A stretch of 64,000 nt of DNA from Candidatus Pacebacteria bacterium CG2_30_36_39 (GTDB lineage: Bacteria > Patescibacteriota > Microgenomatia > UBA1400 > PJMF01): the NCBI GenBank assembly GCA_001873435.1, contig MNZB01000004.1, positions 14,030 to 78,029 on the forward strand. The letters are read 5' to 3'. The position numbers and the translations under genes are program-made. Positions 5,103 to 17,346 of this stretch are shown here, one piece after another. The first letter of the stretch is position 1, and each line of letters starts with the position of its first letter. A model generated the notes under the pieces. It did not search any database, was not told the DNA's origin, and worked only from the letters and a program-made list of their open reading frames with translations.

Positions 5103-6467
5103 TTACTCATCAATAACTGAAGTACTTATCTCTGGAAGTTGTAAAATATCAGCAAACATCTCATCCAAATACTCTCCTGTATGAGGATTTATTGCATTAT
5201 GCAATTCATTTTTAACTGTTTGCAACATTTCATTTGCCTCCACTGTTAAACCAGCATCTCGCAAATGCTCTAAAGCCTGCCTAACAAATAACATATTTAT
5301 TCTCCCAGAAGTACCTGGACTATCAAAAAAGGTGCCACAGCTAATCATTGCTGCCATAGCTGATGCCTTGGCAGCCAATAAAGAAGTTTCTGGATCACTA
5401 CTACCACCTTGATACATAAAAATATGTTCAAAATCATCAATTAACTTACTATTATAGTCATCTACTTCCATACTTATTATTCTCGTCATAACCTCATTTA
5501 ACTGACTTACTGCACTAGAAAAATTTGCTTTCCAACTACCATTGAAACCAGCATCACAAGGACAAGCACCATGCCACCTTATCAAATCTCCATGAGGACA
5601 ACTCCAAGCTGTTCTTTCCCGTAAATTACCTTCCAAAAAATCTCCTTCACCCCAGACACTCATTGCCTCATTAATACCCAACATTGCTACTCCAGCTTCT
5701 GGCAAAGCAGTCTCCATTAAATATCTCAAAAACATATCACCAAATTTAAAATGATGACCAAAAGTTTCTCCGTCCGTAAAAGCTATCATTGGCAAAGTGG
5801 CTGGTAAATTATCTAGTCTAGGAAATATCACTTCATCTGCAAACTGATTTGCATTTTCTTTTTTATGGTGAGCTAAAGCAGAAGAAACTGGTCGATCAAA
5901 AGCTAATAATAAAAACTGCTTACCATTGGGAAGAGGAATTTTCACTGGCCGATCATCAATCTCTTTATTGGGAACATCGATTTGTTCAGGAGCACATATT
6001 ACTCCGATATAACCAAATTCAGAAAGAACTTCTAATGTTTCCATATCCAAAGCCGTCTCTGGTGCCCAAAACCATTGTGGCAATTGCCCTGCTTGTTCAG
6101 CAAATAATTTTGCTCCAGCACCAATTAAAATCTGTTTGTCTCCATAAGAAAGATCTGGCAACAATACATGAAGATAGGGATCTCCAACTCCTCTTTCTTT
6201 CAAAGCTGATTCTAAATCAGGCAAAGATTCTGGAGATATATTTTCCATTTCTTTACGCATAGTCGCAAAGAAATCAAATGAAGAAAGCTCTAATAAGCCA
6301 GCTTGAATCTGTGGAACATAGCTTTCTCCAGCAATTACTCTATTCCAATCAACACCATATGGATCTGTCTGAATAGATTTAACCCGTTCGTGAGCTCCTT
6401 TTCTAGGAGGTTGATAAAAGTGCTCACCGAGAATCATGAAACGTTCTTGATTGTATCGAGCCATCAA
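5103..6467 (-). CDS. glycoside hydrolase family 57-like protein
   Basis: GEHFYQPPR (GH57 region I HQP-type), WAPETAL (WxPE nucleophile region) and TDGETFGHH (DGE acid/base region). Also a Cys cluster CPHGDLIRWHGACPC. Confidence 0.65.
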   Translation of the reverse strand: MMARYNQERFMILGEHFYQPPRKGAHERVKSIQTDPYGVDWNRVIAGESYVPQIQAGLLELSSFDFFATMRKEMENISPESLPDLESALKERGVGDPYLHVLLPDLSYGDKQILIGAGAKLFAEQAGQLPQWFWAPETALDMETLEVLSEFGYIGVICAPEQIDVPNKEIDDRPVKIPLPNGKQFLLLAFDRPVSSALAHHKKENANQFADEVIFPRLDNLPATLPMIAFTDGETFGHHFKFGDMFLRYLMETALPEAGVAMLGINEAMSVWGEGDFLEGNLRERTAWSCPHGDLIRWHGACPCDAGFNGSWKANFSSAVSQLNEVMTRIISMEVDDYNSKLIDDFEHIFMYQGGSSDPETSLLAAKASAMAAMISCGTFFDSPGTSGRINMLFVRQALEHLRDAGLTVEANEMLQTVKNELHNAINPHTGEYLDEMFADILQLPEISTSVIDE

Positions 6468-6506: not shown

Positions 6507-7778
6507 TTAATGCTTTAAAGCTTCTCTTTGTTCAATGCTGTGAAAAATTAAGATCACCAAAATCAAAGGAAAAAATGCCATTAAAGCAGTTTTATGTGAA
6601 CCAAAATTATCCAAAGCAAAACCAATAGCTGGAAACAATACAATAGAAATAATATTGCGCACAAGACTCTCCAAAGAACCAAGAGTAGCACGCATATTCT
6701 TTTGATAAAAATATTGTTTGAATGGACTCATGATTGGAGAAATTAATGAACTAAATGAGAAATAAACTACAAAAAATATTAAACCAGCAATAGGACCAGA
6801 AACAACAAATAAAGATGTTAAAACTAATAATCTAGCAACCATCATGATTTCCAAATATTTTTTTTCTGAAGAAAATTTCTTACTAAAATATTTAGGTACC
6901 AAACTAAAAACTGCCCCCATCAAAGAACCCAAGGCAACCATAATAGGTAAATTTCTTACATCCAATTTAAGATCCAATAAAAATGATTGATAAACTACAT
7001 CTGAAAAAAATAGGTTTACCACTTCACTAAAAATACCAACAAATAATAATTTTTTAACAACTGGATGAGAACTTGTATATTTAATTGCTTGTTTAGAAAT
7101 TTTAACTGTATCAGCAAAATTCTTTTTTAAAGAAAAAGTAACTTTTCTGGTTTTTTCTTTCAAACCAGAAAGAATCATGGCACCAACAAAATAACCCACA
7201 CAACCAGTTAACCACAAAAAATCTAAACCCTGGTGACTCTGACCAAAAACAAAATATTGAGTAGTAGCACCAACTAAGTACAAAAAGATAATTGCATTTA
7301 AATTTGAAAAAGCAGTAGCAAATTGATAAACAAACTCAAAGGTTGAATAAAACTTATTAATCAAATCTTCTCTTTTAGCTTTTTTGGCAATGTCGTAAGG
7401 TAAAGACTCAAAAGCTCCAGAACTAAATGTATAAGCAATTCCCTTTAAACTAAAAAGAAACCACATCATCCAAGGCTCAGTAATAAAGAAAAATAAGCCA
7501 AAAATTAAAGACTGCATCAACCAACTAACTTGAACAGATTTTCTTTTGCCATATAAATCTGCAAAAACTCCAGTTGGAATTTCTGCGATTAATAAAAATA
7601 ATGATTGCAAAGACAAACCAATACCAACCTGAGTTGCTGAAAAACCTTTGGCAAAAAAGAAGGCCATAATAACCATATCAATATCTGGAATAGAAACACC
7701 TGTTCCTAAACCTAAATAAATAGGGTTAAAAAGCTGCCATTCTTTTTGCTTAAAATAATTTTTTAGCTTCTTAAACAT
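6507..7778 (-). CDS. MFS-type transporter (host-like composition), last gene of the atypical operon
   Basis: About 12 hydrophobic segments. MFS loop motif GVFADLYGKRKS (GxxxDrxGrR-like). Only a 7-nt gap to the upstream gene. Confidence 0.65.
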   Translation of the reverse strand: MFKKLKNYFKQKEWQLFNPIYLGLGTGVSIPDIDMVIMAFFFAKGFSATQVGIGLSLQSLFLLIAEIPTGVFADLYGKRKSVQVSWLMQSLIFGLFFFITEPWMMWFLFSLKGIAYTFSSGAFESLPYDIAKKAKREDLINKFYSTFEFVYQFATAFSNLNAIIFLYLVGATTQYFVFGQSHQGLDFLWLTGCVGYFVGAMILSGLKEKTRKVTFSLKKNFADTVKISKQAIKYTSSHPVVKKLLFVGIFSEVVNLFFSDVVYQSFLLDLKLDVRNLPIMVALGSLMGAVFSLVPKYFSKKFSSEKKYLEIMMVARLLVLTSLFVVSGPIAGLIFFVVYFSFSSLISPIMSPFKQYFYQKNMRATLGSLESLVRNIISIVLFPAIGFALDNFGSHKTALMAFFPLILVILIFHSIEQREALKH

Positions 7779-7785
7779 AAGATTC

Positions 7786-8226
7786 TTATCTTACACAAAT
7801 TCGAGCAAAATGAATAATCATTTCCATTTCTTCAGTAAGCTCTAAGCCTTCTCTAGTTTTAACAGCAAATCTATCATCTTCGGCAACAATTGAAATAATT
7901 TCTAAAGTAGCAGTAGTGAAAAACTCACAACCAACTCCATTTACTAAGTATTCCAAAATATCCCAAAGTCTAATATTTCTCTTATCCCATTCCAAATCTT
8001 GGCCAGCCAAAAAATCTTCCTCTGCTAAAGCTAAAACATCTCTAGCTCCTTCACTTAATTGACCTGATTTGTTTTTTAACTGATAAATAATCAGCATGGC
8101 TGCAGCGCAACTAGCGGTATCAGTTGTGAGCATATGACCACATACATGATAAAGCAAATCGCAGTTACATTCCTCTGCTTGTTCTTCTGTTTCTAGAAGA
8201 TGTTTTGGTTTTTTTTCGTCAGACAT
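7786..8226 (-). CDS. hypothetical acidic Cys/His-containing protein
   Basis: 146 aa, acidic. EECNCDLLYHVCGHM could be a metal-binding cluster. Same strand and tight spacing with the operon genes. Confidence 0.4.
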   Translation of the reverse strand: MSDEKKPKHLLETEEQAEECNCDLLYHVCGHMLTTDTASCAAAMLIIYQLKNKSGQLSEGARDVLALAEEDFLAGQDLEWDKRNIRLWDILEYLVNGVGCEFFTTATLEIISIVAEDDRFAVKTREGLELTEEMEMIIHFARICVR

Positions 8227-8237
8227 AATATCCTTTA

Positions 8238-10151
8238 TTATTCTTTTTCTTGCTCATTAATAAAAAGTGCTACAGCACAGCTATCAGAATCAGCCGCTAA
8301 AGCCTGGGCACATAATTTTTCTAGTTCATTTAATTGAGAAGTTTGAATTCCTTCGTTTAATTCTTCGTCAGTAACATAAGTTGGAAAACTCATTGGTTCA
8401 GTTAGCATGAATCTTTCAGTATGAGTACTTTCGATTGGTTGAAAAATTTCTTCTGGACTTTGCAAATCTTTAAGCATTGCCTGCAAAATCTGCATCGGAC
8501 CTTCATGAGTAGAAACAACAACCTTCATTGATCTACCAGTCTCCTGATAAAACTGATTAACTGTTTCTAGTAAATCAATCATAAAAGACAAAGCTTTGAG
8601 ATGTACAAATGAGAAATTTTCACCACCAGCTATGGCATTAGAAAATGAATGCAAAACTTCTTCACCATATTCACTAGCTTTGTGTCCAACTCCAACTCCG
8701 AATGAACGCTCATTTAAACGCCAATCTCTAACAATAGCTGAAACTGGGAACGGCTCACCAATTGACCATAAAGCAACATCAATAGTTGCTAACGAAGAAG
8801 TTCTACCTGATGAAATTACTAAATCTGGAGCAGTAGTATCCCAAAGCTGAGTAGCAATATCATATGAACGTTGAGCACTTCTCTTGGCAATAGTGTCGTC
8901 AAGAATTCCATCGTTGGTATTAATTACACCAGGAAGTTTGCCAGCTCTTTGAGGAGTACTGTCGCCATTGCGAACTAAAAGCAAGTCCAAACCTGCTCCA
9001 TAATTCCAATTAGCTAATAATTCTTGATAACGAGTTCTAAGTTCATCAATACTTGGAATTAGTTCAAGAATTTCTGCTTTTTCTGGATTACTAGCAGTAA
9101 CAAAACTTGGTTCAGAAACTAATCTACCCAACTTACTAGGATCTCTTTGATTAACCCTATCTTTAACATATCCAGCTTGAGTTTCTTCATCCGCATTTTG
9201 AGCAGAAACAGAAACATCCTGAGTTAAACGATTGGTTTCCCAAAGTTTGAGAGCTCTTTTTTGATCTTCAGTTGGTTGATAATCTGGTTTTTCAACTGTA
9301 TGAGCACTCATAATACTTTCTACTTCGATACCATTTGGAAAAGAAAGTACACCAGTAGCATTAATAATAGGAGTAACCTCAGTTTGAAAATATCTAGTAC
9401 CATATTCTTGTGCCCAATAAAGCAAACCTGAAGTAAAAATTAAACGAGTGCCTGGTTTTAATTTGGCATCTTTATAAACTTCATGTTCAAGTAAAACTTT
9501 CTCTAGATCTTCACGCCAATTACGAGCTAATTTTTCGATTTCAGCTGGAAATGATTCCACACGACGAGCATCACCTGCTACATCATCAGCTTTAATACCT
9601 TCTATTTGAGCATTGAGTTGAGCACCATTAAAATCATCCCAGCCATCTATTTCAACCCACATGGGACTCATACCAGCAACTGGACCACTACCCCATACTT
9701 TGCCAGCTGGAGAAACATCTCTATTAGAAATGTCTTGATAAACTCCGGCGTGAGTGATTTTTATTCCACCATCTTCGGTAACTACAGCCATAATAGCTGT
9801 TTCACCTTCAATAGCGTATTTAACACCATGCAAAAGCTCTAAGTCGTTAAGATCTAGTCTTCCTTTTGAATTTGGTACTAATGACCAATCTGGAGGAAGT
9901 GGATCTTCATAATAGGTACCATCTGGAAGAGTTGTAGGAGCTGAATTCCATTTCAAAGTAAAAACATGATCTGGAGTCCATTCACTAAGAGGCATGACTT
10001 CTTTGATCTCGCCATCTTTTGCCACTGCAGCTACTAAGCCTTTTTGTCGCAACTCTGCTTCAAAAGCTCTTTTTTCTTCTTTGTTTGTCCAATCTACTCT
10101 TTCGAGAGAAAGATCAAATTCTTGACGTAATCTACTTATTTTTTCTGCCAT
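8238..10151 (-). CDS. hypothetical two-domain protein; C-terminal phosphoglycerate-mutase-like (histidine phosphatase superfamily) domain with RHG to RNG substitution
   Basis: C-terminal region aligns block by block with dPGM: LLLVRNGDSTPQ vs LVLVRHGESQWN, SSGRTSSLAT vs TSVLKRAIHT, PVSAIVRDWRLNERSFGVGVGHKASEYGEEV vs [33 protein letters not shown], and VVVSTHEG vs IIAAHGNS. The N-terminal 380 aa are unassigned. Confidence 0.55.
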   Translation of the reverse strand: MAEKISRLRQEFDLSLERVDWTNKEEKRAFEAELRQKGLVAAVAKDGEIKEVMPLSEWTPDHVFTLKWNSAPTTLPDGTYYEDPLPPDWSLVPNSKGRLDLNDLELLHGVKYAIEGETAIMAVVTEDGGIKITHAGVYQDISNRDVSPAGKVWGSGPVAGMSPMWVEIDGWDDFNGAQLNAQIEGIKADDVAGDARRVESFPAEIEKLARNWREDLEKVLLEHEVYKDAKLKPGTRLIFTSGLLYWAQEYGTRYFQTEVTPIINATGVLSFPNGIEVESIMSAHTVEKPDYQPTEDQKRALKLWETNRLTQDVSVSAQNADEETQAGYVKDRVNQRDPSKLGRLVSEPSFVTASNPEKAEILELIPSIDELRTRYQELLANWNYGAGLDLLLVRNGDSTPQRAGKLPGVINTNDGILDDTIAKRSAQRSYDIATQLWDTTAPDLVISSGRTSSLATIDVALWSIGEPFPVSAIVRDWRLNERSFGVGVGHKASEYGEEVLHSFSNAIAGGENFSFVHLKALSFMIDLLETVNQFYQETGRSMKVVVSTHEGPMQILQAMLKDLQSPEEIFQPIESTHTERFMLTEPMSFPTYVTDEELNEGIQTSQLNELEKLCAQALAADSDSCAVALFINEQEKE

Positions 10152-10152
10152 A

Positions 10153-11139
10153 TTATTTGCCCAATTTTTCAGCGTTTAAATTTGTAAAGTAGGTAAAATA
10201 ATCACCATCCAAAGGAGCATTGGTAGGAACAAAAGTTTCCTCAGTTCTAGCCACAGTCTTTCCAGGAATAACTGTCTCAACAACTTTATTTTCAGCTAAC
10301 TTCATTACACTTCTGGCAGTGAAACTTGGCATAATAGCTGGATCGATTGATCTAGCACCATCATCTTCAAGTAAAATTTGACCTGTTGATAATAAAAATG
10401 GCTTGCCTTCAACAATTCCTAGTTTGGCTAATTTTTCTGGAGAATAATTACCAACCCATTTGCCTAAGCGTTCACCCCAAAGCTTTAAAGAATTAACTTG
10501 AGCATTTGGAGTATGTAAAGCAACTTCACCTGTTTGGTCATAAACCCAATATTCCATTTCGATTTCGGCAATTTCTGACCAATCATTTACTTGAACCCAA
10601 GTAGTAGATAAACCAGAAGATCCTCCATTTTCAATACCACTAGTCCATGTTTTATATGTTCTGCCGGTATCATCTAAACGAGGAGTTCTATCACCAAAAT
10701 CAACCAAGGTACCAATATATAAAGGCTTCATTACTCCATTTTCTAGAACACCAACCACAGCTGCCTCAGCCTCTAAAACGTATTGTTTTTGACCCTCAAT
10801 CATACAAAGAGCTTCTGTTGAAGCAGTATCGTGAGCTTTTGGCAAAGGCTCGATATGAGGATTTGGTTTTGAAGTAGCAATATTAAAATGCATTAAATAT
10901 CCATGCTCTGGCAAAAATTCACCTCGAGTTTGATATTGCAAAGAATCATCACTACCTACCACCAAAACTATATCTAATGGCTTAAGCAACTCTTCTAATC
11001 TGCGATGTAAATCTGGTCTAGAAAATAGTTGAGTAGCTTTTAAATGAGATAAATCAATTTCTTTGGAAATTAAATCTATTCCAGATAATTTTTCATCTTT
11101 TTCTAGAAATTCTAAATCGATAATGATTGTTTCTTTCAT
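10153..11139 (-). CDS. hypothetical protein (acidic, Trp-rich)
   Basis: 328-aa ORF with a 1-nt gap to the downstream gene, in the operon. No recognisable motif. Confidence 0.45.
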   Translation of the reverse strand: MKETIIIDLEFLEKDEKLSGIDLISKEIDLSHLKATQLFSRPDLHRRLEELLKPLDIVLVVGSDDSLQYQTRGEFLPEHGYLMHFNIATSKPNPHIEPLPKAHDTASTEALCMIEGQKQYVLEAEAAVVGVLENGVMKPLYIGTLVDFGDRTPRLDDTGRTYKTWTSGIENGGSSGLSTTWVQVNDWSEIAEIEMEYWVYDQTGEVALHTPNAQVNSLKLWGERLGKWVGNYSPEKLAKLGIVEGKPFLLSTGQILLEDDGARSIDPAIMPSFTARSVMKLAENKVVETVIPGKTVARTEETFVPTNAPLDGDYFTYFTNLNAEKLGK

Positions 11140-11163: not shown

Positions 11164-12795
11164 TTAATGAGTTCCTGAGGCGACTCTTTGAGCGTGAACA
11201 GCCATTGTGTCGCTAGAATTTTGTAATGAACCAACTACGTTTACGTACTCTGGCAATCTCATTCCATCTCTGTGTCTATCAACATCGTGGAGAGTACCAA
11301 TAATACGACCACCTGGTTTAACTAACCTACTGGCTTCCTCAAAAATCTTACAAACTTGATGTCCACCTTCACAACAATCAGCAGCTGATGTTTGAACAAC
11401 TACCATGTCATAAAGTGGTTCTTCATAAAATTCACCAATTGGAATATTACCCAAGTCTTCAACGTTGCGGAAACGAACGTTCATAGCACGCATACCATTT
11501 AGAGCCTGCATGATGAAAGCTTGCTTACCTCTACCATGACTCATGATGTCAATACGACGAAGTGGATTTTTACCATCCTTGGCATTAGCAGCAGATAAAA
11601 TATTTGCTTCTTTATGACAACCAATGAATAAAACTCTTTGACGAGGATTTTCTCTTAGTTCGGCTAGAGCTTCAGCAATATTAGAGTCAGGAGTATGATC
11701 TTGTTTTCTCCATTCCTCATACTTTTCTTGGAAGAGAGATTCTACTTTATTCCAATCTAAAGATAGAACTTCAGCAGTATCTCTAATTCCTAAGGCACCT
11801 AAAACAAAAGCTTTTAATGGATAAAAGGTATTGTGACCAGCATCAGTCACTAAACTATAATCTCCAACCCAACTATTTACTTTAGCTTGAGCTGCAATTA
11901 CTGATCCCTCTCCAACATACATAGTTCTATAAAGAACTTTGGCTTCTTTAGCTACCCAAGCCCAATCACCAATAGTGACACCTGGGAAACTAGTATATTG
12001 ACGGACACGAGCAAGTTGAGAAGGTAGATCGGCTGGATGTTCTTGAGTAATAAAGTAGGCTTTTTGACCAACCCAAGCATTATCACCAATTTTTAAAGTT
12101 TCACCACCTTGTACGTTAAAGGCACCGCCAATACGAGCATAGCGACCAATAGAAACTCTAGGAATAGCACTCATTGGACCCATTGAAGAATCCATTTCTG
12201 GATGAGCAGAAGTGTTGTAACCAGAACTCTGAAAATGAGTAGGAAGAATAGCTTCAAAACCACGGCCAACATCAGTTGGAAGCATTTGTGAGCCACCTCT
12301 TAGCATATCAAAACTTAATGGATTGCCACTTGGACTAATTGTTTTTCCAGATTCTTCCAAAGGATGGACATGTAAAATAGGACCAGTAGTATCAATATAA
12401 AAATGTTCTTCTGGTAAGTTAAAAGCTGCTCTGAGTTCTCCGAGTTTTTCTTTCCAAAGAGCTGCCATGGCAATTTCATCGGTAAAGGTTTTAGCTTTGC
12501 TACCAATTTTCTTTAAATCAGCACAGATCATGGCCCAAGCATAGGCTGGGGTCATGTCACCCAAATGCAAAGCACCTTGAACAAACATTGCTACTTCAGC
12601 ATCAAATGGACGAGTGTATTCTGCCGGTTGATGCTCTTCAAAAACTACTGGTCTAGTAAGACCAAGTTCTTGAGCTAATTTCATTTGGTTGGAGGGATCA
12701 CGGTCGATAATTTGACCCGCAGGATTAATAGCCAGGACTTCACCTTGGCCTAATCGTCTATGAACTTCTTCTGTGTGTTCTGCCTTTTTTGCCAT
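11164..12795 (-). CDS. hypothetical multi-domain protein: N-terminal unknown domain, central left-handed beta-helix (hexapeptide-repeat) region, C-terminal class-I methyltransferase-like fold
   Basis: Hexapeptide-like periodicity in SIGRYARIGGAFNVQGGETLKIGDNAWVG...VTIGDWAWVAKEAKV...VGEGSVIAAQAKVN. The C-terminus has VLFIGCHKEA (degenerate motif I), YDMVVVQTSAAD (motif II-like) and LVKPGGRIIG (motif III). Start taken at ATG 12795 (MAKKAEH); the track starts at an upstream TTG. Confidence 0.5.
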   Translation of the reverse strand: MAKKAEHTEEVHRRLGQGEVLAINPAGQIIDRDPSNQMKLAQELGLTRPVVFEEHQPAEYTRPFDAEVAMFVQGALHLGDMTPAYAWAMICADLKKIGSKAKTFTDEIAMAALWKEKLGELRAAFNLPEEHFYIDTTGPILHVHPLEESGKTISPSGNPLSFDMLRGGSQMLPTDVGRGFEAILPTHFQSSGYNTSAHPEMDSSMGPMSAIPRVSIGRYARIGGAFNVQGGETLKIGDNAWVGQKAYFITQEHPADLPSQLARVRQYTSFPGVTIGDWAWVAKEAKVLYRTMYVGEGSVIAAQAKVNSWVGDYSLVTDAGHNTFYPLKAFVLGALGIRDTAEVLSLDWNKVESLFQEKYEEWRKQDHTPDSNIAEALAELRENPRQRVLFIGCHKEANILSAANAKDGKNPLRRIDIMSHGRGKQAFIMQALNGMRAMNVRFRNVEDLGNIPIGEFYEEPLYDMVVVQTSAADCCEGGHQVCKIFEEASRLVKPGGRIIGTLHDVDRHRDGMRLPEYVNVVGSLQNSSDTMAVHAQRVASGTH

Positions 12796-12853
12796 AATTC
12801 TCTCTTTTCTCCCCAATTAGTAATATTTGAGCAGTGCGAGAAGAAAAAAAAGG

Positions 12854-12898
12854 ATTATAGTCCTTTCATAATGAATTGTCAATACTTTATATAGGATA
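12854..12898 (-). promoter_or_regulatory. near-consensus sigma70 promoter (TTGACA-17-TATAAT) with upstream TATCCTATA element; drives the 11164..6507 operon
   Basis: Minus strand reads TATCCTATATAAAGTATTGACAattcattatgaaaggacTATAATcc. The -35 is at 12877..12882, the -10 at 12854..12859 and TATCCTATA at 12890..12898. Confidence 0.55.
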
Positions 12899-13233
12899 TA
12901 TATATTATCAATACCAGATCTGAAAAAAACATAAAAATAAATTATTACAAGATCTTTGAAAGACTAATAGTAATGTTTTTATTAAAATATAAGTCTATCA
13001 ATTATTTGTAAATAACAAAATAAAGGCCCATAATGAGAGTGTTAAATGTTTTCTACAGTAGCGTTCGCACTCGCTTATGGAATCATCTAACAAAATCCCT
13101 GCCTCATGGCAAGAAAGGAGACCATCATTGGAAAACTTCATTTGTCACCAATCTTTGCTTCTTGGTAATCCAAAACAAATCAATTCAGCATGCATGGGAG
13201 AGAACACAACGCCTCCCCCTATTTTCATATAAC

Positions 13234-14349
13234 TCAACTATTTATTATTTTTTCCCAACTATATTTTTCATTACCAAAATGCCCATAAACAGCAGTCTGC
13301 TTATAAATTGGTTGTTTTAAATTTAAATAATTAATTGTTCCAGCCACAGACAAATCAATTAGTTCTTTGGCAAATTTTTCTATTTTTTTATCACTAACTT
13401 TGGCTGTGCCAAAAGTCTCTATCTCCAACATAACTGGTTTTTGTGCTCCAATAAAATATGCCAAACGTACTTCAGCTTTTTTAGCTAAATTATTTCCAAC
13501 AATATTTTTAGCAATAAACCTAGCTGCATAAGCACCAGATCTATCAACTTTACTAGGATCTTTACCAGAAAATGCTCCCCCACCTACCCTGGCAAAACCA
13601 CCATATGTATCTACCACTATTTTTCTTCCAGTTACTCCAGTATCTGAGGCTGGACCACCTATATACCAAGCCCCAGTACCATTAACTACTAATTGATTTT
13701 TATTAATTGAAAAACCATAAAATTCTAATACTGGCAAAACTACTTGTTGATATAAATCATTTTTTACATCTACAAGTTTCATACTCTTTTGGTGCGGTAC
13801 AGCCAAAACTACTTGGACAATACCAACTGGTTTATCATTTTCATATTGAACACTAACTTGAGTTTTTCCATCTGGCCTAAGATATGAAAGTTGCTTACTT
13901 TCTCTAACACAATCTATTTTTTCAGCCAATTTATGTGCTAACTCTATTGGAAGTGGCATAAGATTTTTTGTGTCCTGACAAGCATAGCCAAACATCATTC
14001 CCTGATCTCCAGCTCCAGCACTATCAACTCCTATGGCAATTTCTGGAGACTGATTGTGAATATAGACATTTATTGGAGATAAATTAGTAAAACCAAGGAA
14101 CCACTTAGTAAATCCAAGTCTCTTGATTTCTTCTCTGGCAATTAATTCATAATTTGGTTTTTCACCAAGACAAGTAACTTCTCCAGCCATCACCACTTGA
14201 TTTGCTGTTACTAGGGTTTCTACAGCAACCCTTCCATTAGGATCCTGCTTAAGAACAGCATCAACTACTGCATCAGATATTTGATCACAGATCTTATCAG
14301 GGTGACCAGCACAGACTGATTCTGAAGTAAAAATATATGATTGTGGCAT
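13234..14349 (-). CDS. metK: S-adenosylmethionine synthetase
   Basis: GHPDKICDQISDAVVDA and other MetK blocks. Start taken at MPQSY (14349) because GAGGAG lies 9 nt upstream; the upstream in-frame Met at 14367 lies inside the RBS. Confidence 0.95.
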   Translation of the reverse strand: MPQSYIFTSESVCAGHPDKICDQISDAVVDAVLKQDPNGRVAVETLVTANQVVMAGEVTCLGEKPNYELIAREEIKRLGFTKWFLGFTNLSPINVYIHNQSPEIAIGVDSAGAGDQGMMFGYACQDTKNLMPLPIELAHKLAEKIDCVRESKQLSYLRPDGKTQVSVQYENDKPVGIVQVVLAVPHQKSMKLVDVKNDLYQQVVLPVLEFYGFSINKNQLVVNGTGAWYIGGPASDTGVTGRKIVVDTYGGFARVGGGAFSGKDPSKVDRSGAYAARFIAKNIVGNNLAKKAEVRLAYFIGAQKPVMLEIETFGTAKVSDKKIEKFAKELIDLSVAGTINYLNLKQPIYKQTAVYGHFGNEKYSWEKIINS

Positions 14350-14351
14350 AA

Positions 14352-14503
14352 AAAAAACTCCTCTCAATAATTAAGGAGGAGTTACTTATTTTTTTTGCCT
14401 ATTTCGGCCACATCATTCCCCCTTAAGCGAACTAGCACCGTATCCTTTGCCAAAAGGCTCGGTTGCTGGACAATGTATAAACATTGCCACTCTTGATGTT
14501 GAG
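14352..14503 (-). promoter_or_regulatory. SAM-I-clan (S-box-like, possibly SAM-I/IV variant) riboswitch leader with terminator hairpin overlapping the metK RBS and start codon
   Basis: Minus-strand RNA CUCAACAUCAAGAGUGGCAAUGUUUAUACAUUGUCCAGCAACCGAGCCUUUUGGCAAAGGAUACGGUGCUAGUUCGCUUAAGGGGGAAUGAUGUGG contains the S-box signatures AUCAAGAG, GCAACC and GGUGCUA plus a closing P1 (CAACAUC/GAUGUGG). It is followed by AACUCCUCC-uuaauuauuga-GAGGAGUU-UUUUUUUU(AUG). P2 is a simple hairpin without the classic GGAGGGA/GGCCC kink-turn, so the subtype is uncertain. Confidence 0.55.
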
Positions 14504-14538
14504 AAAAATTATATCAGACTAATATTTATTTGCACAGC

Positions 14539-15762
14539 TTAGTGCTGAAGAACGTTATGAATTTTTGCTTTAACCTGCTCGATTAAACTAGGATCTTTGA
14601 GATATCTGGCTGCAAATATAGCTGTCAAAATTAAGGTAATTGCTCCAAATAAATATGGTGACTGAGCACCAAGCTCTGCATAAATAATAGTACCGACAAT
14701 AGGACCAATCATACGAGCAATACTACCAACAGATTGACTAATACCCATAATGTTTCCTTGCTCATCGTCTGGTGAAAGTTTAGAAACCAAACCAGCAAGA
14801 ATTGGATTAGAAATACCATTAGCAAAAGCAAGTAAGGTAATGGCAACTAATAAAAATGGAATATTACCACCAAATGCTACCAATAATAGAGATATTGCCA
14901 TCATTAATATTCCTATTACTACTATCTTATTTTCTGGAATTAAACGAATTATTCTCTTGAGTAAAAATAGCTGGATAATTATTCCAACCAAACCAAGATA
15001 AGCAAAAAGATAACCATTTTGTTCTGCAGATAAATGCAGAGTATGTTCGGTAAATAAAGCAAATGTTCCTTGCAATAAAGAAAATGCTAACATCATAAAA
15101 AAGCTGATAGTGACAACTATGCCAACGTTGGGATGAGTTAAAACCTCATAGATTTCTTTAAAACTAAAAAATGCTCTTCTCTTTTTTTGAGGCAATATAC
15201 CTAAAATCTTTTTTTCTTTAATTGATTCTGGCAAGTAGAAATATGTTAGAACTGTGGCTATTAATGAAACCCCAGCAGCAACATAAGCAGGGACTGAATA
15301 ACCAAAACGAGACAGCAAGCCACCGGTAGCCGGACCAAGAATAAAACCCAAGCTCAATGCCGCCATTAAAAAACCCATTCCTTGGGTGCGATTCTCTTTA
15401 GAGGTAATATCTGCTACGTATGCTTGAGCAGTAGAAATGTTTCCACCAGAAGCACCATCAATAATGCGAGAAATAAATAATAGTGGTAGTGACTTGGCTA
15501 AACCCAAAAGAATAAATGAGATAGTAGTTCCGGCAAGAGAAAAAATAAGAATTGGTCTACGACCTACTTTATCTGAAAGCTCACCTAATATAGGTGCTGC
15601 CAACAACTGAAAAAGTGAGTATGTAGCAGATAATAAACCGATAGCAATAACTCCAGCACCCAAACTTTCAACATAATATGGGAGTAACGGCAAAATAATT
15701 CCAAAACCCAAAAAGTTGGTAAAAACAATTAAAAAAATAATCCACATTCTTTTATCAAGCAT
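14539..15762 (-). CDS. MFS multidrug-efflux-type transporter (DHA1/TetA-like)
   Basis: The N-terminus LGFGIILPLLPYYVESLGAG...LFQLLAAPILGELSDKVGRRPIL is the classic MFS motif A. Twelve predicted TM helices. Confidence 0.85.
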   Translation of the reverse strand: MLDKRMWIIFLIVFTNFLGFGIILPLLPYYVESLGAGVIAIGLLSATYSLFQLLAAPILGELSDKVGRRPILIFSLAGTTISFILLGLAKSLPLLFISRIIDGASGGNISTAQAYVADITSKENRTQGMGFLMAALSLGFILGPATGGLLSRFGYSVPAYVAAGVSLIATVLTYFYLPESIKEKKILGILPQKKRRAFFSFKEIYEVLTHPNVGIVVTISFFMMLAFSLLQGTFALFTEHTLHLSAEQNGYLFAYLGLVGIIIQLFLLKRIIRLIPENKIVVIGILMMAISLLLVAFGGNIPFLLVAITLLAFANGISNPILAGLVSKLSPDDEQGNIMGISQSVGSIARMIGPIVGTIIYAELGAQSPYLFGAITLILTAIFAARYLKDPSLIEQVKAKIHNVLQH

Positions 15763-15865
15763 ATGTTTCTCTAAAAATAAGTTTTCGGAAAATAATAAAT
15801 CTTAGGTAAGTTGATCCGAAGACAGCATTATACAGCGTCTATATTTGTAAAAATAGTGATTAAGA

Positions 15866-16657
15866 TTACCATTTAATTTTAATTAAATCAGATAATTCTT
15901 TTTTTGATTCTTTTGATGTTAGATCAAGACTCACTGGAGTAACTGAAATGCGTTCATTTTCCAAGGCATTAAGATCTGTGCCATTTGGATATCCCTTGGT
16001 ATTGGGTGGGGAACCTATATGTCTATATTTTTCTCCTTGCTTTGCAAAGAGCTTGCCATACTTATCTCTAGCAATATCAGTAACTTCACAAGGAGTATTC
16101 ATATCAGCTGCAAAAGGAATGTTGACTGAAATTAAATCAACATCATCCTTTAAATTTGCATTAATAGTAATTTCAACTAATTTGGCAGTGATCTTGGCTG
16201 GATTTTCATAAATATGATAAAAAGCTCGATCAAAATAATTAATTTCTTTATCATGATCCCAGGTTAAATGCAGTGATGATGCCAAGGCTTTTGTACCATC
16301 AATGGCTGCTTCCATTGCAGCTCCGGCAGTTCCAGAACTTAATATTCTTCCATGTCCAGCATTAAGACCAATGTTTATTCCTGAAACAACAAATTTTGGT
16401 CTACTAGGAGCTAAATCATAAAGACCAAGCTGTACGCAATCAGCTGGAGTACCACTAACTGCATATACTTCAAATTCTTCTAGTTTAACCTTATTTACTT
16501 CAAGGTCGTTGTAGCAAGTGATTGCCTTTCCCTGCCAACTTCTCTTGCGATCTGGAGCAACAGCAATTACATTAAATTTTTTTGCTAATTCCCTGAGTAA
16601 AGGATAAAAACCTATAGCTTGATATCCATCATCGTTAGTTAAAAGTATGTCGATCAT
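15866..16657 (-). CDS. surE: 5'/3'-nucleotidase SurE
   Basis: N-terminal MIDILLTNDDGY is the SurE signature. Length about 260 aa. Confidence 0.9.
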   Translation of the reverse strand: MIDILLTNDDGYQAIGFYPLLRELAKKFNVIAVAPDRKRSWQGKAITCYNDLEVNKVKLEEFEVYAVSGTPADCVQLGLYDLAPSRPKFVVSGINIGLNAGHGRILSSGTAGAAMEAAIDGTKALASSLHLTWDHDKEINYFDRAFYHIYENPAKITAKLVEITINANLKDDVDLISVNIPFAADMNTPCEVTDIARDKYGKLFAKQGEKYRHIGSPPNTKGYPNGTDLNALENERISVTPVSLDLTSKESKKELSDLIKIKW

Positions 16658-16677
16658 AATTAAATTATAGTCTAAGT

Positions 16678-17346
16678 TTATTTGATAATAGTTAATAAAT
16701 CAGTAAAAATTAAATTAATAATCTGTTTTTTTTGTTCATTAGTACTGTGAGTTGGAATTTCTGGAACCAACATTCTTTTTCCAGGTTTATATAGTTGTAC
16801 ATATTCGCTTAAACACCCCATGGCTTCTTTGAAACCAGGTTTATTAGTTGAAAAATATCCATTTACAAACTCAGTTCCAAGTTCTGGATCTTTTGGGTCA
16901 TCAATTCCATTTAAAACATTAATATTAAAATCATTTAACTTTTCAACAAAAGATTGCCACTTACTATTTTCTATCTCTCCATTGTCATATAAATAAAAAT
17001 CCTTATATTCAACGTCCTCATGAATAGATAAAAATGTTTTGAAATCAAATTGATTTATTATTAAAAGATTATCAATAGCTTCTTGTTCTGTTGCATTTTT
17101 TAAAAATTGACGGTTAAGATCTAAATTATTAATATTTCTTCTGGTTTTTTTCTCAACGGCAGAAGGACTTACTTTGGCTACATAAATAAAATCTGGAAGT
17201 TCTTTATAATGATTTTCAATATACTCCATAGTTGGCTCAATAACTCTCCATTCATCTCCATGTGTACCAGTATGAATAAGCAGCTCAGGATTTTCACCTT
17301 TTTGCCAATATGTAATCAGTCCAAGTTGTTTATTTTGTAGTTCCAC
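16678..17346 (-). CDS. M14-like zinc carboxypeptidase / AstE-AspA family hydrolase
   Basis: HTGTHGDEW (HxxE zinc ligands) and NLDLNRQF (DxNRNF-type signature). Confidence 0.6.
   Translation of the reverse strand: MELQNKQLGLITYWQKGENPELLIHTGTHGDEWRVIEPTMEYIENHYKELPDFIYVAKVSPSAVEKKTRRNINNLDLNRQFLKNATEQEAIDNLLIINQFDFKTFLSIHEDVEYKDFYLYDNGEIENSKWQSFVEKLNDFNINVLNGIDDPKDPELGTEFVNGYFSTNKPGFKEAMGCLSEYVQLYKPGKRMLVPEIPTHSTNEQKKQIINLIFTDLLTIIK

What the first reader, a model, noticed from the sequence alone, without database searches (positions are those of the whole stretch)
8238..10151. Phosphoglycerate-mutase-like domain with the phospho-acceptor His replaced by Asn (RHG to RNG)
The C-terminal 200 aa align block for block with cofactor-dependent PGM / histidine phosphatase branch 1, including the LNER general-acid block and the C-terminal His block. 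The invariant RHG nucleophile motif reads RNG (LLLVRNGDSTPQ). The fold is therefore retained but the canonical phospho-His chemistry is impossible. The domain could be a pseudo-enzyme or phospho-ligand binding module, or it could use another nucleophile. It is fused to an unassigned 380-aa N-terminal domain.
Basis: partly seen in the sequence, partly recalled or inferred. Interest (0 to 1): 0.65.

Follow-up and report, generated by a model that had tools for sequence, protein, structure and literature searches.

The report
Dead phosphatase domain on FAH-like enzyme
A rare protein from a candidate-phyla-radiation bacterium carries a well-conserved histidine-phosphatase (phosphoglycerate-mutase-like) domain that has lost its catalytic histidine and most of its phosphate pocket. 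The domain is fused to a fumarylacetoacetate-hydrolase-like domain, so it most likely acts as a binding or assembly module, not as a phosphatase.

Summary
ORF 8238-10151 (minus strand, 637 aa, Candidatus Pacebacteria) ends in a genuine histidine-phosphatase branch-1 (HP) domain, residues 385-592. The evidence is a family profile against yeast PGM1 (E=1e-5), BLASTP E=1e-24 to a canonical His_Phos_1 protein, and Foldseek E=2.5e-7 to TIGAR and dPGM.

The nucleophile position is Asn in 6 of 8 orthologs, Ser in 2, and never His. It is His in 35 of 35 aligned outgroup relatives.

- The Asn17 equivalent is Gln or Glu.
- The Arg62 equivalent is Ser or Thr.
- The second His is Gln in 3 of 8 orthologs.
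- No His or Cys is invariant anywhere in the domain.

Arg394, Glu481 and the block RDWRLNER are nevertheless invariant. The domain is as conserved as the rest of the protein, so it is functional.

The "unassigned" N-terminal domain has a fumarylacetoacetate-hydrolase (FAH)-like fold. This is fold-level evidence only. It is a paralog of the upstream gene.

The gene sits in a five-gene module conserved in four genomes: hexapeptide acetyltransferase, FAH-like, FAH-like+HP, small helical protein, MFS transporter.

Best reading: a non-phosphatase ligand-binding or assembly module. It is a new variant of a known kind and of moderate interest.

The parts
8238..10151 (-). 637-aa ORF: FAH-like domain + helical linker + degenerate histidine-phosphatase (HP*) domain + poorly conserved helical tail
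   Evidence: ORF list. It is 100% identical to hypothetical protein PIR64835.1 of Candidatus Pacebacteria. Full-length AlphaFold model: pLDDT 73.9, pTM 0.71.
9267..10094 (-). FAH-like domain (residues 20-295), paralog of the upstream 328-aa gene
   Evidence: BLASTP to the upstream ORF E=1e-10. Domain model pLDDT 81. The top 34 Foldseek PDB hits are all FAH superfamily, from 4pfz at 5.5e-7 through FAHD1, YcgM and YisK, followed by a sharp cliff. There is no sequence-level signal.
9801..9809 (-). E115-G-E117, candidate metal-binding ExE. With D140 (DISNRDV, 9714-9734) and K151 (9699-9701) it resembles by eye the FAH motifs ExE / DxxxRDV / K.
   Evidence: Y112, E115, E117, G136, D140 and K151 are invariant across 16 sequences of both paralog families. 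The correspondence to YcgM motifs was read by eye and is not statistically supported.
9000..9266 (-). Helical linker (residues 296-384), less conserved
   Evidence: Mean pairwise identity 37% against 57% for the two domains. Secondary structure.
8376..8999 (-). HP* domain (residues 385-592): histidine-phosphatase branch-1 fold with a dismantled catalytic core
8964..8972 (-). R394-N395-G396 in place of RHG. Arg is kept and the nucleophile His is replaced.
   Evidence: Translation. The column is N in 6 and S in 2 of the clade, against H in 35/35 outgroup sequences.
8949..8951 (-). Q401 at the position of the conserved Asn (E. coli GpmA N17)
   Evidence: The column is Q/E in the clade and N in 35/35 outgroup sequences. 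The pairwise alignment with P0018 agrees.
8796..8804 (-). R450-T-S452. S452 sits at the position of the second catalytic Arg (GpmA R62). R450 lies two residues earlier and is not invariant.
   Evidence: The column is S/T in the clade and R in 64/64 outgroup sequences. R450 is R in 6/8, against L in 86% of the outgroup.
8706..8729 (-). RDWRLNER (475-482), invariant in all 8 orthologs. It contains E481, the equivalent of the general acid/base Glu (GpmA E89).
8499..8510 (-). T-H549-E550-G. The second catalytic His is present here but is Gln in 3/8 orthologs. E550 is invariant and specific to the clade.
   Evidence: E at this column in 1% of the outgroup.
10153..11139 (-). 328-aa FAH-like paralog, 1 nt upstream. 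It is fused to the N-terminus of the ortholog P0008.
11164..12816 (-). 550-aa protein: conserved N-terminal domain of unknown type, a left-handed beta-helix O-acetyltransferase domain (residues about 215-325, with an 'EHP' His), and a C-terminal domain of unknown type
   Evidence: NCBIfam WcaF-family E=3.7e-7. PDB galactoside O-acetyltransferase 3ftt E=4e-4 with the family profile. Conserved in 4 genomes.
7786..8226 (-). 146-aa helical protein. It is fused as a C-terminal extension in orthologs P0004, P0005 and P0007.
   Evidence: No Pfam or PDB match. The Cys residues are not conserved.
6507..7778 (-). MFS transporter, last conserved gene of the module
   Evidence: Pfam MFS_1 E=9e-15. Syntenic in L001, L002 and L010 at 55-72% identity.
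12854..12882 (-). Promoter-like site with a perfect TTGACA-17-TATAAT consensus, 38 nt upstream of the 550-aa ORF
   Evidence: 12/12 matches. Gaps between the module genes are 24, 1, 11 and 7 nt.

Best explanation
The C-terminal domain (residues 385-592) descends from a small standalone histidine phosphatase. It was fused to a FAH-like enzyme domain and then lost phosphoryl-transfer catalysis. The changes are: nucleophile His to Asn/Ser, Asn17-equivalent to Gln/Glu, Arg62-equivalent to Ser/Thr, second His dispensable (His/Gln), and an insertion in the pocket loop.

The domain is kept under purifying selection as a non-phosphatase module. It most likely uses the re-shaped former active-site pocket to bind a small anionic or polar ligand and/or to hold together a multi-subunit complex. 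The pocket residues I have in mind are R394, E481, R475/R478/R482, E511/N512 and E550. The ligand would plausibly be an oxo-acid or sugar-acid related to the substrate of the FAH-like domains.

The proposed complex consists of the 328-aa FAH-like paralog, this protein and the 146-aa helical protein. It would work together with a hexapeptide O-acetyltransferase and an MFS transporter encoded in the same operon.

Shown:
- Homology and fold of the domain.
- The pattern of residue loss across orthologs, and the level of conservation.
- Gene fusions and synteny.

Inferred:
- Absence of phosphatase activity.
- Ligand binding.
- Formation of the complex (by Rosetta-stone logic from the fusions).
- The chemical class of the ligand.
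For: Homology and fold:
- establish the HP fold and homology.

Catalytic-core census:
- H11 column: 0/8 His, against 35/35 in the outgroup.
- N17 column: 0/8 Asn, against 35/35.
- R62 column: 0/8 Arg, against 64/64.
- H184 column: 5/8 His, against 99% in the outgroup.
- No invariant His or Cys in the domain.

Evidence that the domain is still functional:
- It is as conserved as the FAH-like domain: 57% mean pairwise identity and 25% invariant columns, against 37% for the linker and 21% for the tail.
- RDWRLNER, R394, E481, E511 and the clade-specific E550 are invariant.

Fusions and synteny:
- P0008 fuses the upstream paralog with this protein. P0004, P0005 and P0007 fuse the 146-aa protein.
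- The five-gene module is conserved in four genomes at 41-77% identity.
- Intergenic gaps are tight and a consensus promoter precedes the module.

Precedent:
- Flea HP-superfamily proteins that lack both catalytic His have no phosphatase activity. They bind amines and lipids, with the ligand carboxylate pointing at the substituted catalytic residues (PMC10728186).
Against: - No biochemical data exist.
- Loss of the nucleophile alone does not prove inactivity. PMC10728186 notes that His-to-Ala fructose-2,6-bisphosphatase loses less than ten-fold activity.
- Strict invariance of E481, the general acid/base, and of several Arg residues is what one would also expect of a still-catalytic site.
- The model's pocket loops (residues 401-422 and 484-489) are low-confidence, and the coordinates could not be inspected. 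Pocket geometry and its position relative to the FAH-like site are therefore unknown.
- Only 8 orthologs support the residue statistics.
- The FAH assignment of the partner domain is fold-level only.
Confidence: 0.55

Rival explanations
1. The HP fold has acquired a new catalytic function. The retained and newly fixed residues (R394, E481, E550, R475/R478/R482, N/S395, Q/E401) would catalyse a reaction without phospho-His. Possible chemistries are hydrolysis, isomerisation or tautomerisation of a carboxylate-bearing intermediate made by the FAH-like or acetyltransferase partners, or acyl-phosphate or metal-assisted chemistry through Glu.
For: - The invariant RDWRLNER block and E481 are kept although the phosphate pocket is gone.
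- A new acidic residue, E550, is fixed next to the former second His. It occurs in 1% of the outgroup.
- Conservation equals that of the presumed catalytic FAH-like domain.
- The gene sits in a tight metabolic-looking operon.
Against: - To my knowledge no member of the HP superfamily is known to catalyse anything but phosphoryl transfer or hydrolysis.
- Two pocket positions tolerate N/S and H/Q exchange. That suits hydrogen-bonding or binding roles better than a precisely tuned catalytic residue.
- No metal-site or nucleophile geometry could be checked.
Confidence: 0.2
2. The domain is still a weak phosphatase. Water attacks directly, assisted by E481, and the substrate phosphate is held by R394, R450, R478, R482 and H549, as in His-to-Ala mutants of fructose-2,6-bisphosphatase.
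For: - R394 and E481 are invariant.
- H549 is present in the window protein and in 5/8 orthologs. R450 is present in 6/8 and lies near the lost Arg.
- There is a literature precedent for residual activity after loss of the His.
- JGI auto-annotation calls P0008 'broad specificity phosphatase PhoE'.
Against: - Three pocket residues are lost together (H11, N17 and R62 equivalents) in all 8 orthologs.
- The second His is lost in 3/8, and R450 is absent in 2/8.
- A negative charge (E550, and E401 in 5/8) has been introduced at the pocket.
- The JGI name is automatic transfer of a family name.
Confidence: 0.1
3. The domain is a pure structural scaffold or oligomerisation domain with no ligand pocket. 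Conservation would then reflect protein-protein interfaces with the FAH-like paralog and the 146-aa protein.
For: - Rosetta-stone fusions on both sides.
- pTM of 0.71 for the full-length model suggests a defined inter-domain arrangement.
Against: The invariant residues are concentrated in the classical active-site motifs (RxG, the LNER block, GE[NS], HxG), not spread over a surface. That argues for continued use of the pocket.
Confidence: 0.12
4. The resemblance to histidine phosphatases is a chance or low-complexity match, or the ORF is a decaying pseudogene.
For: - The direct Pfam scan gives no hit at E<=1.
- The single-sequence PDB search is negative.
Against: - Profile, transitive and fold evidence are all significant and agree in register.
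- The ORF is intact in 8 orthologs at 41-100% identity with a strongly conserved domain.
Confidence: 0.01

Closest known systems
Histidine phosphatase superfamily branch 1 (Pfam PF00300 His_Phos_1): small PhoE/GpgP/PspA-like phosphatases, TIGAR, cofactor-dependent PGM
   Same: - Same alpha/beta fold (Foldseek E 2.5e-7 to 3e-6, TM 0.55-0.68 on the target).
- Same motif order: RxG, S..(R)..T, LNER, GE[SN], HxG.
- R10 and E89 equivalents are invariant.
- The nearest sequence relative, P0018, is a canonical member.
   Different: - Nucleophile His is Asn/Ser, Asn17 is Gln/Glu, Arg62 is Ser/Thr, and the second His is not conserved.
- A 7-10 residue insertion follows the RxG strand, and an acidic residue is fixed after the second His.
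- It scores below every curated family threshold.
- It is fused to a FAH-like domain. All 77 more distant relatives found are standalone proteins of about 130-380 aa.
[quoted passage not shown]
   Same: - HP fold with the RHG His and the second His naturally substituted.
- Shown experimentally to lack phosphatase activity.
- The old catalytic pocket has been re-used to bind small molecules, with a fatty-acid carboxylate facing the substituted residues.
   Different: - Branch 2, eukaryotic, secreted and single-domain, with His replaced by Gly and by Ser/Pro.
- The case here is branch 1, bacterial (CPR), cytoplasmic-looking, fused to an enzyme domain, and still has Arg and Glu of the core.
FAH superfamily (PF01557): FAHD1, E. 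coli YcgM, HpcE/HpaG, fumarylpyruvate hydrolases, 2-keto-3-deoxy-sugar-acid dehydratases
   Same: - The N-terminal domain and the upstream paralog give only FAH structures as significant Foldseek hits (also ranks 13 and 24).
- Tandem or fused FAH-like domains in P0008 recall the two-FAH-domain HpcE/HpaG (from my own knowledge).
- The invariant E-x-E, D-x-S-x-R-D-V and K resemble FAH metal and catalytic motifs by eye.
   Different: - No detectable sequence homology.
- TM scores are only 0.45-0.59, with rmsd of about 6-7 A.
- The domain is about 80 residues longer.
- No known FAH protein carries an HP domain, to my knowledge.

Membership tests
Histidine phosphatase superfamily, branch 1 (His_Phos_1) | Three-layer alpha/beta/alpha fold shared with dPGM, TIGAR and PhoE | tested here: met
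   Foldseek against PDB: 158 hits at E<=1e-3, headed by TIGAR 3e9d (2.5e-7), dPGMs, GpgP and PspA.
Histidine phosphatase superfamily, branch 1 (His_Phos_1) | Significant sequence homology to family members | tested here: met
   Profile against PDB: yeast PGM1 E=1.1e-5. BLASTP to P0018 E=1e-24, and P0018 matches Pfam His_Phos_1 at E=3.9e-23. The direct Pfam scan of the window protein is negative at E<=1.
Histidine phosphatase superfamily, branch 1 (His_Phos_1) | Phospho-accepting His in the RHG motif | tested here: not met
   Asn in 6/8 and Ser in 2/8 orthologs. His in 35/35 aligned outgroup proteins.
Histidine phosphatase superfamily, branch 1 (His_Phos_1) | First Arg of the phosphate pocket (R of RHG) | tested here: met
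   R394 is invariant.
Histidine phosphatase superfamily, branch 1 (His_Phos_1) | Second Arg of the phosphate pocket (GpmA R62) | tested here: not met
   The column is S/T in 8/8 orthologs and R in 64/64 outgroup sequences. A nearby R450 is present in only 6/8.
Histidine phosphatase superfamily, branch 1 (His_Phos_1) | Conserved Asn after RHG (GpmA N17) | tested here: not met
   Q/E in 8/8 orthologs and N in 35/35 outgroup sequences.
Histidine phosphatase superfamily, branch 1 (His_Phos_1) | Second catalytic His (GpmA H184, HxG motif) | tested here: inconclusive
   H549 is present in the window protein and in 5/8 orthologs, and is Gln in 3/8. The outgroup has His in 99%.
Histidine phosphatase superfamily, branch 1 (His_Phos_1) | General acid/base Glu (GpmA E89, LNER block) | tested here: met
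   E481 is invariant within the invariant RDWRLNER block.
Histidine phosphatase superfamily, branch 1 (His_Phos_1) | Phosphatase or mutase activity via a phospho-His intermediate | not testable with these tools
   Needs enzyme assays. The sequence argues against it.
Cofactor-dependent phosphoglycerate mutase (GpmA, NCBIfam PRK14120 / TIGR01258) | Score above the curated equivalog or subfamily cut-off | tested here: not met
   19.1 bits against a cut-off of 366, and 13.4 bits against 81.7.
FAH superfamily (PF01557), for the N-terminal domain | FAH C-terminal-domain fold | tested here: met
   The top 34 Foldseek PDB hits are all FAH proteins (E 5.5e-7 to 8e-4, TMt 0.44-0.59), and the next hit is at E=3e-3 with prob 0.5. 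The full-length model reproduces this (ranks 13 and 24).
FAH superfamily (PF01557), for the N-terminal domain | Sequence match to the family profile | tested here: not met
   No Pfam hit for any of 16 members at E<=10. hhalign against YcgM or a YcgM alignment gives E 0.13-0.23. Smith-Waterman is no better than shuffles. The PDB profile search is negative.
FAH superfamily (PF01557), for the N-terminal domain | Glu-Glu-Asp metal triad and catalytic Lys | tested here: inconclusive
   E115, E117, D140 and K151 are invariant in both paralog families and resemble YcgM's HEVEL / DLTLRDV / KAKAF by eye. No significant alignment fixes the register.
Pseudo-enzyme (pseudophosphatase) in the operational sense | Enzyme fold retained, catalytic residues substituted, sequence under purifying selection | tested here: met
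   for fold and substitutions. Conservation equals that of the neighbouring domain.
Pseudo-enzyme (pseudophosphatase) in the operational sense | Demonstrated lack of the ancestral activity | not testable with these tools
   Requires biochemistry.

The most novel reading that the evidence does not exclude
The histidine-phosphatase fold has been re-tooled into an enzyme of different chemistry. It would have no phospho-His and would use E481, E550 and R394 on a carboxylate or ester intermediate. It would work inside a CPR-specific five-gene pathway (hexapeptide acetyltransferase, two divergent FAH-like domains, a helical subunit, an MFS transporter) whose substrate class is unknown. That would be the first non-phosphoryl-transfer activity in this superfamily and a new metabolic module in Candidatus Pacebacteria.
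Probability: 0.15. Interest if true: 0.75.

Novelty: new variant of a known kind. Interest (0 to 1): 0.42.

Why it matters
Naturally degenerate histidine-phosphatase domains are documented in eukaryotes, for example the flea salivary binders. I found no described bacterial branch-1 example in the few full-text searches I ran, and none that is fused to another enzyme fold. This one shows an ordered dismantling of the phosphate pocket while the Arg/Glu half of the site stays invariant, which makes it a clean natural experiment in how the fold is repurposed.

It also warns against automatic annotation. One ortholog is labelled 'broad specificity phosphatase PhoE'.

Finally, it marks a tightly conserved and very rare five-gene operon in CPR bacteria. 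Apart from the MFS transporter, none of its proteins passes a curated family threshold. The family occurs as 8 protein clusters among 5.8 billion and in 2 of 185,579 species genomes. The practical impact is limited until a substrate is known.

Tried and rejected
Direct family searches on the 637-aa protein:
- Pfam, single-sequence PDB and PADLOC scans found nothing useful.

Sequence-level tests of the FAH assignment, all negative (the assignment stays fold-level):
- Profile against PDB.
- hhalign against the real E. coli YcgM.
- Pfam scan of all 16 members at E<=10.
- Smith-Waterman with shuffles (39 of 300 shuffles reach the score).
- hhalign against a YcgM-family alignment.

- The last homolog search, on YcgM, listed only relatives of at least 78% identity. 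It added no diversity.
- The genome scan found only 2 loci.
- The metagenome scan found 2 short matches (about 26-43 query residues, 47-57% identity). I did not examine them and they added no full-length member of the family.

Libraries not available:
- Model coordinates are not exposed, so pocket geometry, domain interface and docking could not be examined.

Ideas rejected:
- The tail of the 637-aa protein duplicates the start of the 146-aa ORF: no BLAST similarity.
- The 146-aa protein is a Cys/metal-cluster protein: its Cys residues are not conserved.
- MetK (upstream) and the GH57-like gene (downstream) belong to the module: they are not syntenic in L001, L002 or L010. MetK is also separated by 417 nt with a terminator-like and a promoter-like site.
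- The closest canonical relative shares the context: P0018 lies in a purine-biosynthesis operon instead.
- Anti-phage defence: no PADLOC hit.
Full report
**1. What is at the coordinates**

The ORF is exactly 8238..10151 on the minus strand and encodes 637 aa. It is identical to a 'hypothetical protein' of Candidatus Pacebacteria (CG10_big_fil_rev MAG), a candidate-phyla-radiation bacterium. LLLVRNGDSTP is encoded at 8952-8984, and R394-N395-G396 at 8964-8972.

**2. Is the phosphoglycerate-mutase likeness real?**

Direct tests are weak:
- Pfam His_Phos_1 gives no hit even at E<=1.
- NCBIfam phosphoglyceromutase scores 19 bits against a cut-off of 366 (E=6e-4).
- phmmer against PDB gives nothing relevant.

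Three independent routes then make it significant, and they agree in register:
- **Profile against PDB.** A profile of the C-terminal domains of the 8 known orthologs (alignment A2) hits yeast PGM1 at E=1.1e-5. It pairs LLLVRNGDS with LVLVRHGQS and RDWRLNERSFG with RSWRLNERHYG. hhalign against the real E. coli GpmA (fetched) aligns 168 columns at E=4.5e-4. It pairs N395 with H11, E481 with E89 and H549 with H184.
- **Exhaustive profile search.** The same profile, searched against 1.84 billion representative proteins, finds 79 proteins at E<=1e-3. Two of them are members of the clade itself. The other 77 are proteins of about 130-380 aa. The closest, P0018, gives BLASTP E=1e-24 over 250 aa and is a bona fide Pfam His_Phos_1 protein at E=3.9e-23. 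The six others I scanned are also His_Phos_1 proteins.
- **Fold search.** The AlphaFold model of the full protein has pLDDT 73.9 and pTM 0.71. Foldseek against PDB gives TIGAR, dPGMs, glucosyl-3-phosphoglycerate phosphatase and phosphoserine phosphatase PspA at E=2.5e-7 and below, with probability 1.00.

Its refutation criterion, a His appearing at the nucleophile position after proper gapping, is not met.

**3. The catalytic core across orthologs and outgroup**

I aligned all 86 domain matches to the clade HMM and counted columns.

| Position (E. coli GpmA numbering) | Clade (8 orthologs) | Outgroup |
|---|---|---|
| Nucleophile H11 | N in 6, S in 2 | H in 35/35 |
| N17 | Q in 3, E in 5 | N in 35/35 |
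| R62 | S in 6, T in 2 | R in 64/64 |
| H184 | H in 5, Q in 3 | H in 99% |
| R10 | R in 8/8 | R in 100% |
| E89 | E in 8/8 | E in 100% |

Other features of the clade:
- An Arg two residues before the R62 position (R450) is present in only 6 of 8.
- E550, directly after the second His, is invariant and clade-specific. It occurs in 1% of the outgroup, where the residue is M, V or A.
- There is a 7-10 residue insertion in the loop after the RxG strand. AlphaFold models this loop with low confidence (residues 401-422).
- No His and no Cys is invariant anywhere in residues 385-592.

Phospho-His chemistry is therefore excluded, both at the canonical site and by a substitute His. The classical phosphate pocket has lost three of its five polar ligands in every ortholog.

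**4. Is the domain decaying?**

No. Mean pairwise identity is 57%, and 25% of columns are invariant. Those are the same values as for the N-terminal domain. The linker scores 37% and the C-terminal tail 21%.

The invariant residues sit in the classical active-site motifs: R394, RDWRLNER at 475-482, G510-E511-N512, and E550-G551. Clade-specific invariants are K423, Y430, W437, R475 and W477. The pocket region is being maintained, but for something other than phosphoryl transfer through His.

**5. The rest of the protein**

Residues about 20-295 are paralogous to the gene immediately upstream, 10153-11139, 328 aa (BLASTP E=1e-10). A joint alignment of 16 sequences from both families gave an AlphaFold model with pLDDT 81.3 and pTM 0.82.

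Its 34 significant Foldseek PDB hits are all fumarylacetoacetate-hydrolase (FAH) superfamily proteins. They include 4pfz at 5.5e-7, fumarylpyruvate hydrolases, FAHD1, E. coli YcgM, YisK, and 2-keto-3-deoxy-sugar-acid enzymes. The next hit is at E=3e-3 with probability 0.5. The full-length model had also found FAH proteins (ranks 13 and 24).

At the sequence level nothing supports this assignment, so I call the domain FAH-like at fold level only.

By eye, residues invariant in both paralog families resemble YcgM's motifs:
- Y112, E115-x-E117 resembles HEVEL.
- G136 and D140-I-S-N-R144-D-V resemble DLTLRDV.
- K151 resembles KAKAF.

That correspondence is suggestive but untested. Residues 296-384 form a less conserved helical linker.

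**6. Genomic context**

Five genes are co-linear, with gaps of 24, 1, 11 and 7 nt. They follow a perfect TTGACA-17-TATAAT promoter-like site at 12882..12854.

| Gene | Window coordinates | What it is | Evidence |
|---|---|---|---|
| 550 aa | 11164-12816 | Contains a left-handed beta-helix O-acetyltransferase domain | |
| 328 aa | 10153-11139 | FAH-like paralog | |
| 637 aa | 8238-10151 | The protein under study | |
| 146 aa | 7786-8226 | Helical protein with no known family | |
| 423 aa | 6507-7778 | MFS transporter | |

The same five-gene order recurs in three other genomes at 41-77% protein identity: L001, L002/L003 (the same contig is also L011) and L010. Two kinds of fusion occur. P0008 joins the 328-aa paralog to this protein. 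P0004, P0005 and P0007 join the 146-aa protein to its C-terminus. By Rosetta-stone logic the three products form one complex.

MetK (upstream) and the GH57-like gene (downstream) are not syntenic elsewhere.

The family is extremely rare:
- 8 clusters among 5.8 billion proteins.
- 2 of 185,579 species-representative genomes.
- No full-length member from the metagenome scan, which returned two short unexamined matches.

**7. Mechanism**

Most likely (about 0.55): a small standalone histidine phosphatase was captured by fusion and lost phosphoryl-transfer catalysis. It is retained as a ligand-binding and/or assembly module of a FAH-like hetero-complex. The surviving basic and acidic pocket residues suggest an anionic or polar small ligand. 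An oxo-acid or sugar-acid related to FAH-type chemistry is a reasonable guess, not a result.

A direct precedent exists in the same superfamily. Flea acid-phosphatase-like proteins that lack both catalytic His have no phosphatase activity. They bind biogenic amines and lipids, and the ligand's carboxylate faces the substituted catalytic residues (PMC10728186).

Rivals:
- A new catalytic activity based on E481, E550 and R394 (about 0.2).
- Residual His-independent phosphatase activity (about 0.1). The same paper notes that fructose-2,6-bisphosphatase His-to-Ala mutants lose less than ten-fold activity. Here, however, N17 and R62 are lost as well, and acidic residues have been added.
- A pure scaffold (about 0.12).
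- A chance match or pseudogene (about 0.01, refuted).

**8. Comparison with what is known, and novelty**

The domain is homologous to His_Phos_1 but fails three defining catalytic features: the nucleophile His, the second Arg and the Asn. A fourth, the second His, is not conserved. I therefore file it as a degenerate derivative of the superfamily, not as a functional phosphatase or mutase. It is certainly not GpmA.

Pseudo-enzymes as such are common, so this is a new variant of a known kind. Interest is moderate at 0.42. It is a clean and rare case with an intriguing conserved operon, but there is no substrate and no experimental handle yet.

Noticed in passing
L006 8001-8834; L007 2985-3818: The closest canonical relative (P0018, 277 aa, RHT...N...R...H intact) lies inside a purine de novo biosynthesis operon. 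It sits between purM and a purQ-like amidotransferase. It is followed by a nucleoside-deoxyribosyltransferase-like gene and a flavodoxin-like gene, then purC, purE, purB, purF and purD. That is an unusual place for a histidine phosphatase.
   Followed up: no
window 12854-12882 (-): A perfect sigma-70 consensus (TTGACA, 17 nt, TATAAT; 12/12) lies 38 nt upstream of the 550-aa ORF. A terminator-like hairpin at 13115..13096 follows metK. Together they define the start of the five-gene operon.
   Followed up: partly
window 11164-12816 (-): The 550-aa first gene combines three parts. The first is a strongly conserved N-terminal domain of unknown type (motif EAILPTHxQxSxYxTxxHPEM). The second is a galactoside/xenobiotic-type hexapeptide O-acetyltransferase core with an 'EHP' His. 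The third is a C-terminal region that by eye looks like a degenerate Rossmann methyltransferase (VLFIGCH..., LVKPGGRIIGTL), but it has no Pfam support and is truncated in L002.
   Followed up: partly
L010 and L011 (genome contigs records CAYSQA010000002.1, CAZYTL010000025.1): The two species-representative MAGs that carry the module are titled 'uncultured Pseudomonadales' and 'uncultured Gammaproteobacteria'. L010 has 35% GC and its proteins are 62-85% identical to those of this Pacebacteria window, so its label looks wrong. L011 is less clear, at 44% GC and about 51% identity.
   Followed up: no
window 5103-6467 (-): A 454-aa ORF 39 nt downstream of the MFS gene has only a partial glycoside-hydrolase family 57 match (Pfam E=5e-9, residues 68-270) and no NCBIfam hit. 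It is not syntenic with the module in the other genomes.
   Followed up: partly
window 13234-17346 (-): Upstream neighbours on the same strand are metK (SAM synthetase), a second MFS transporter, surE (5'/3'-nucleotidase) and a succinylglutamate-desuccinylase/aspartoacylase-like ORF. No link to the module was found.
   Followed up: no
P0008 (L001 4942-7599): JGI's automatic annotation names the triple-fusion ortholog 'broad specificity phosphatase PhoE', although it has RNT in place of RHG and lacks the pocket Arg. This is probably over-annotation.
   Followed up: yes
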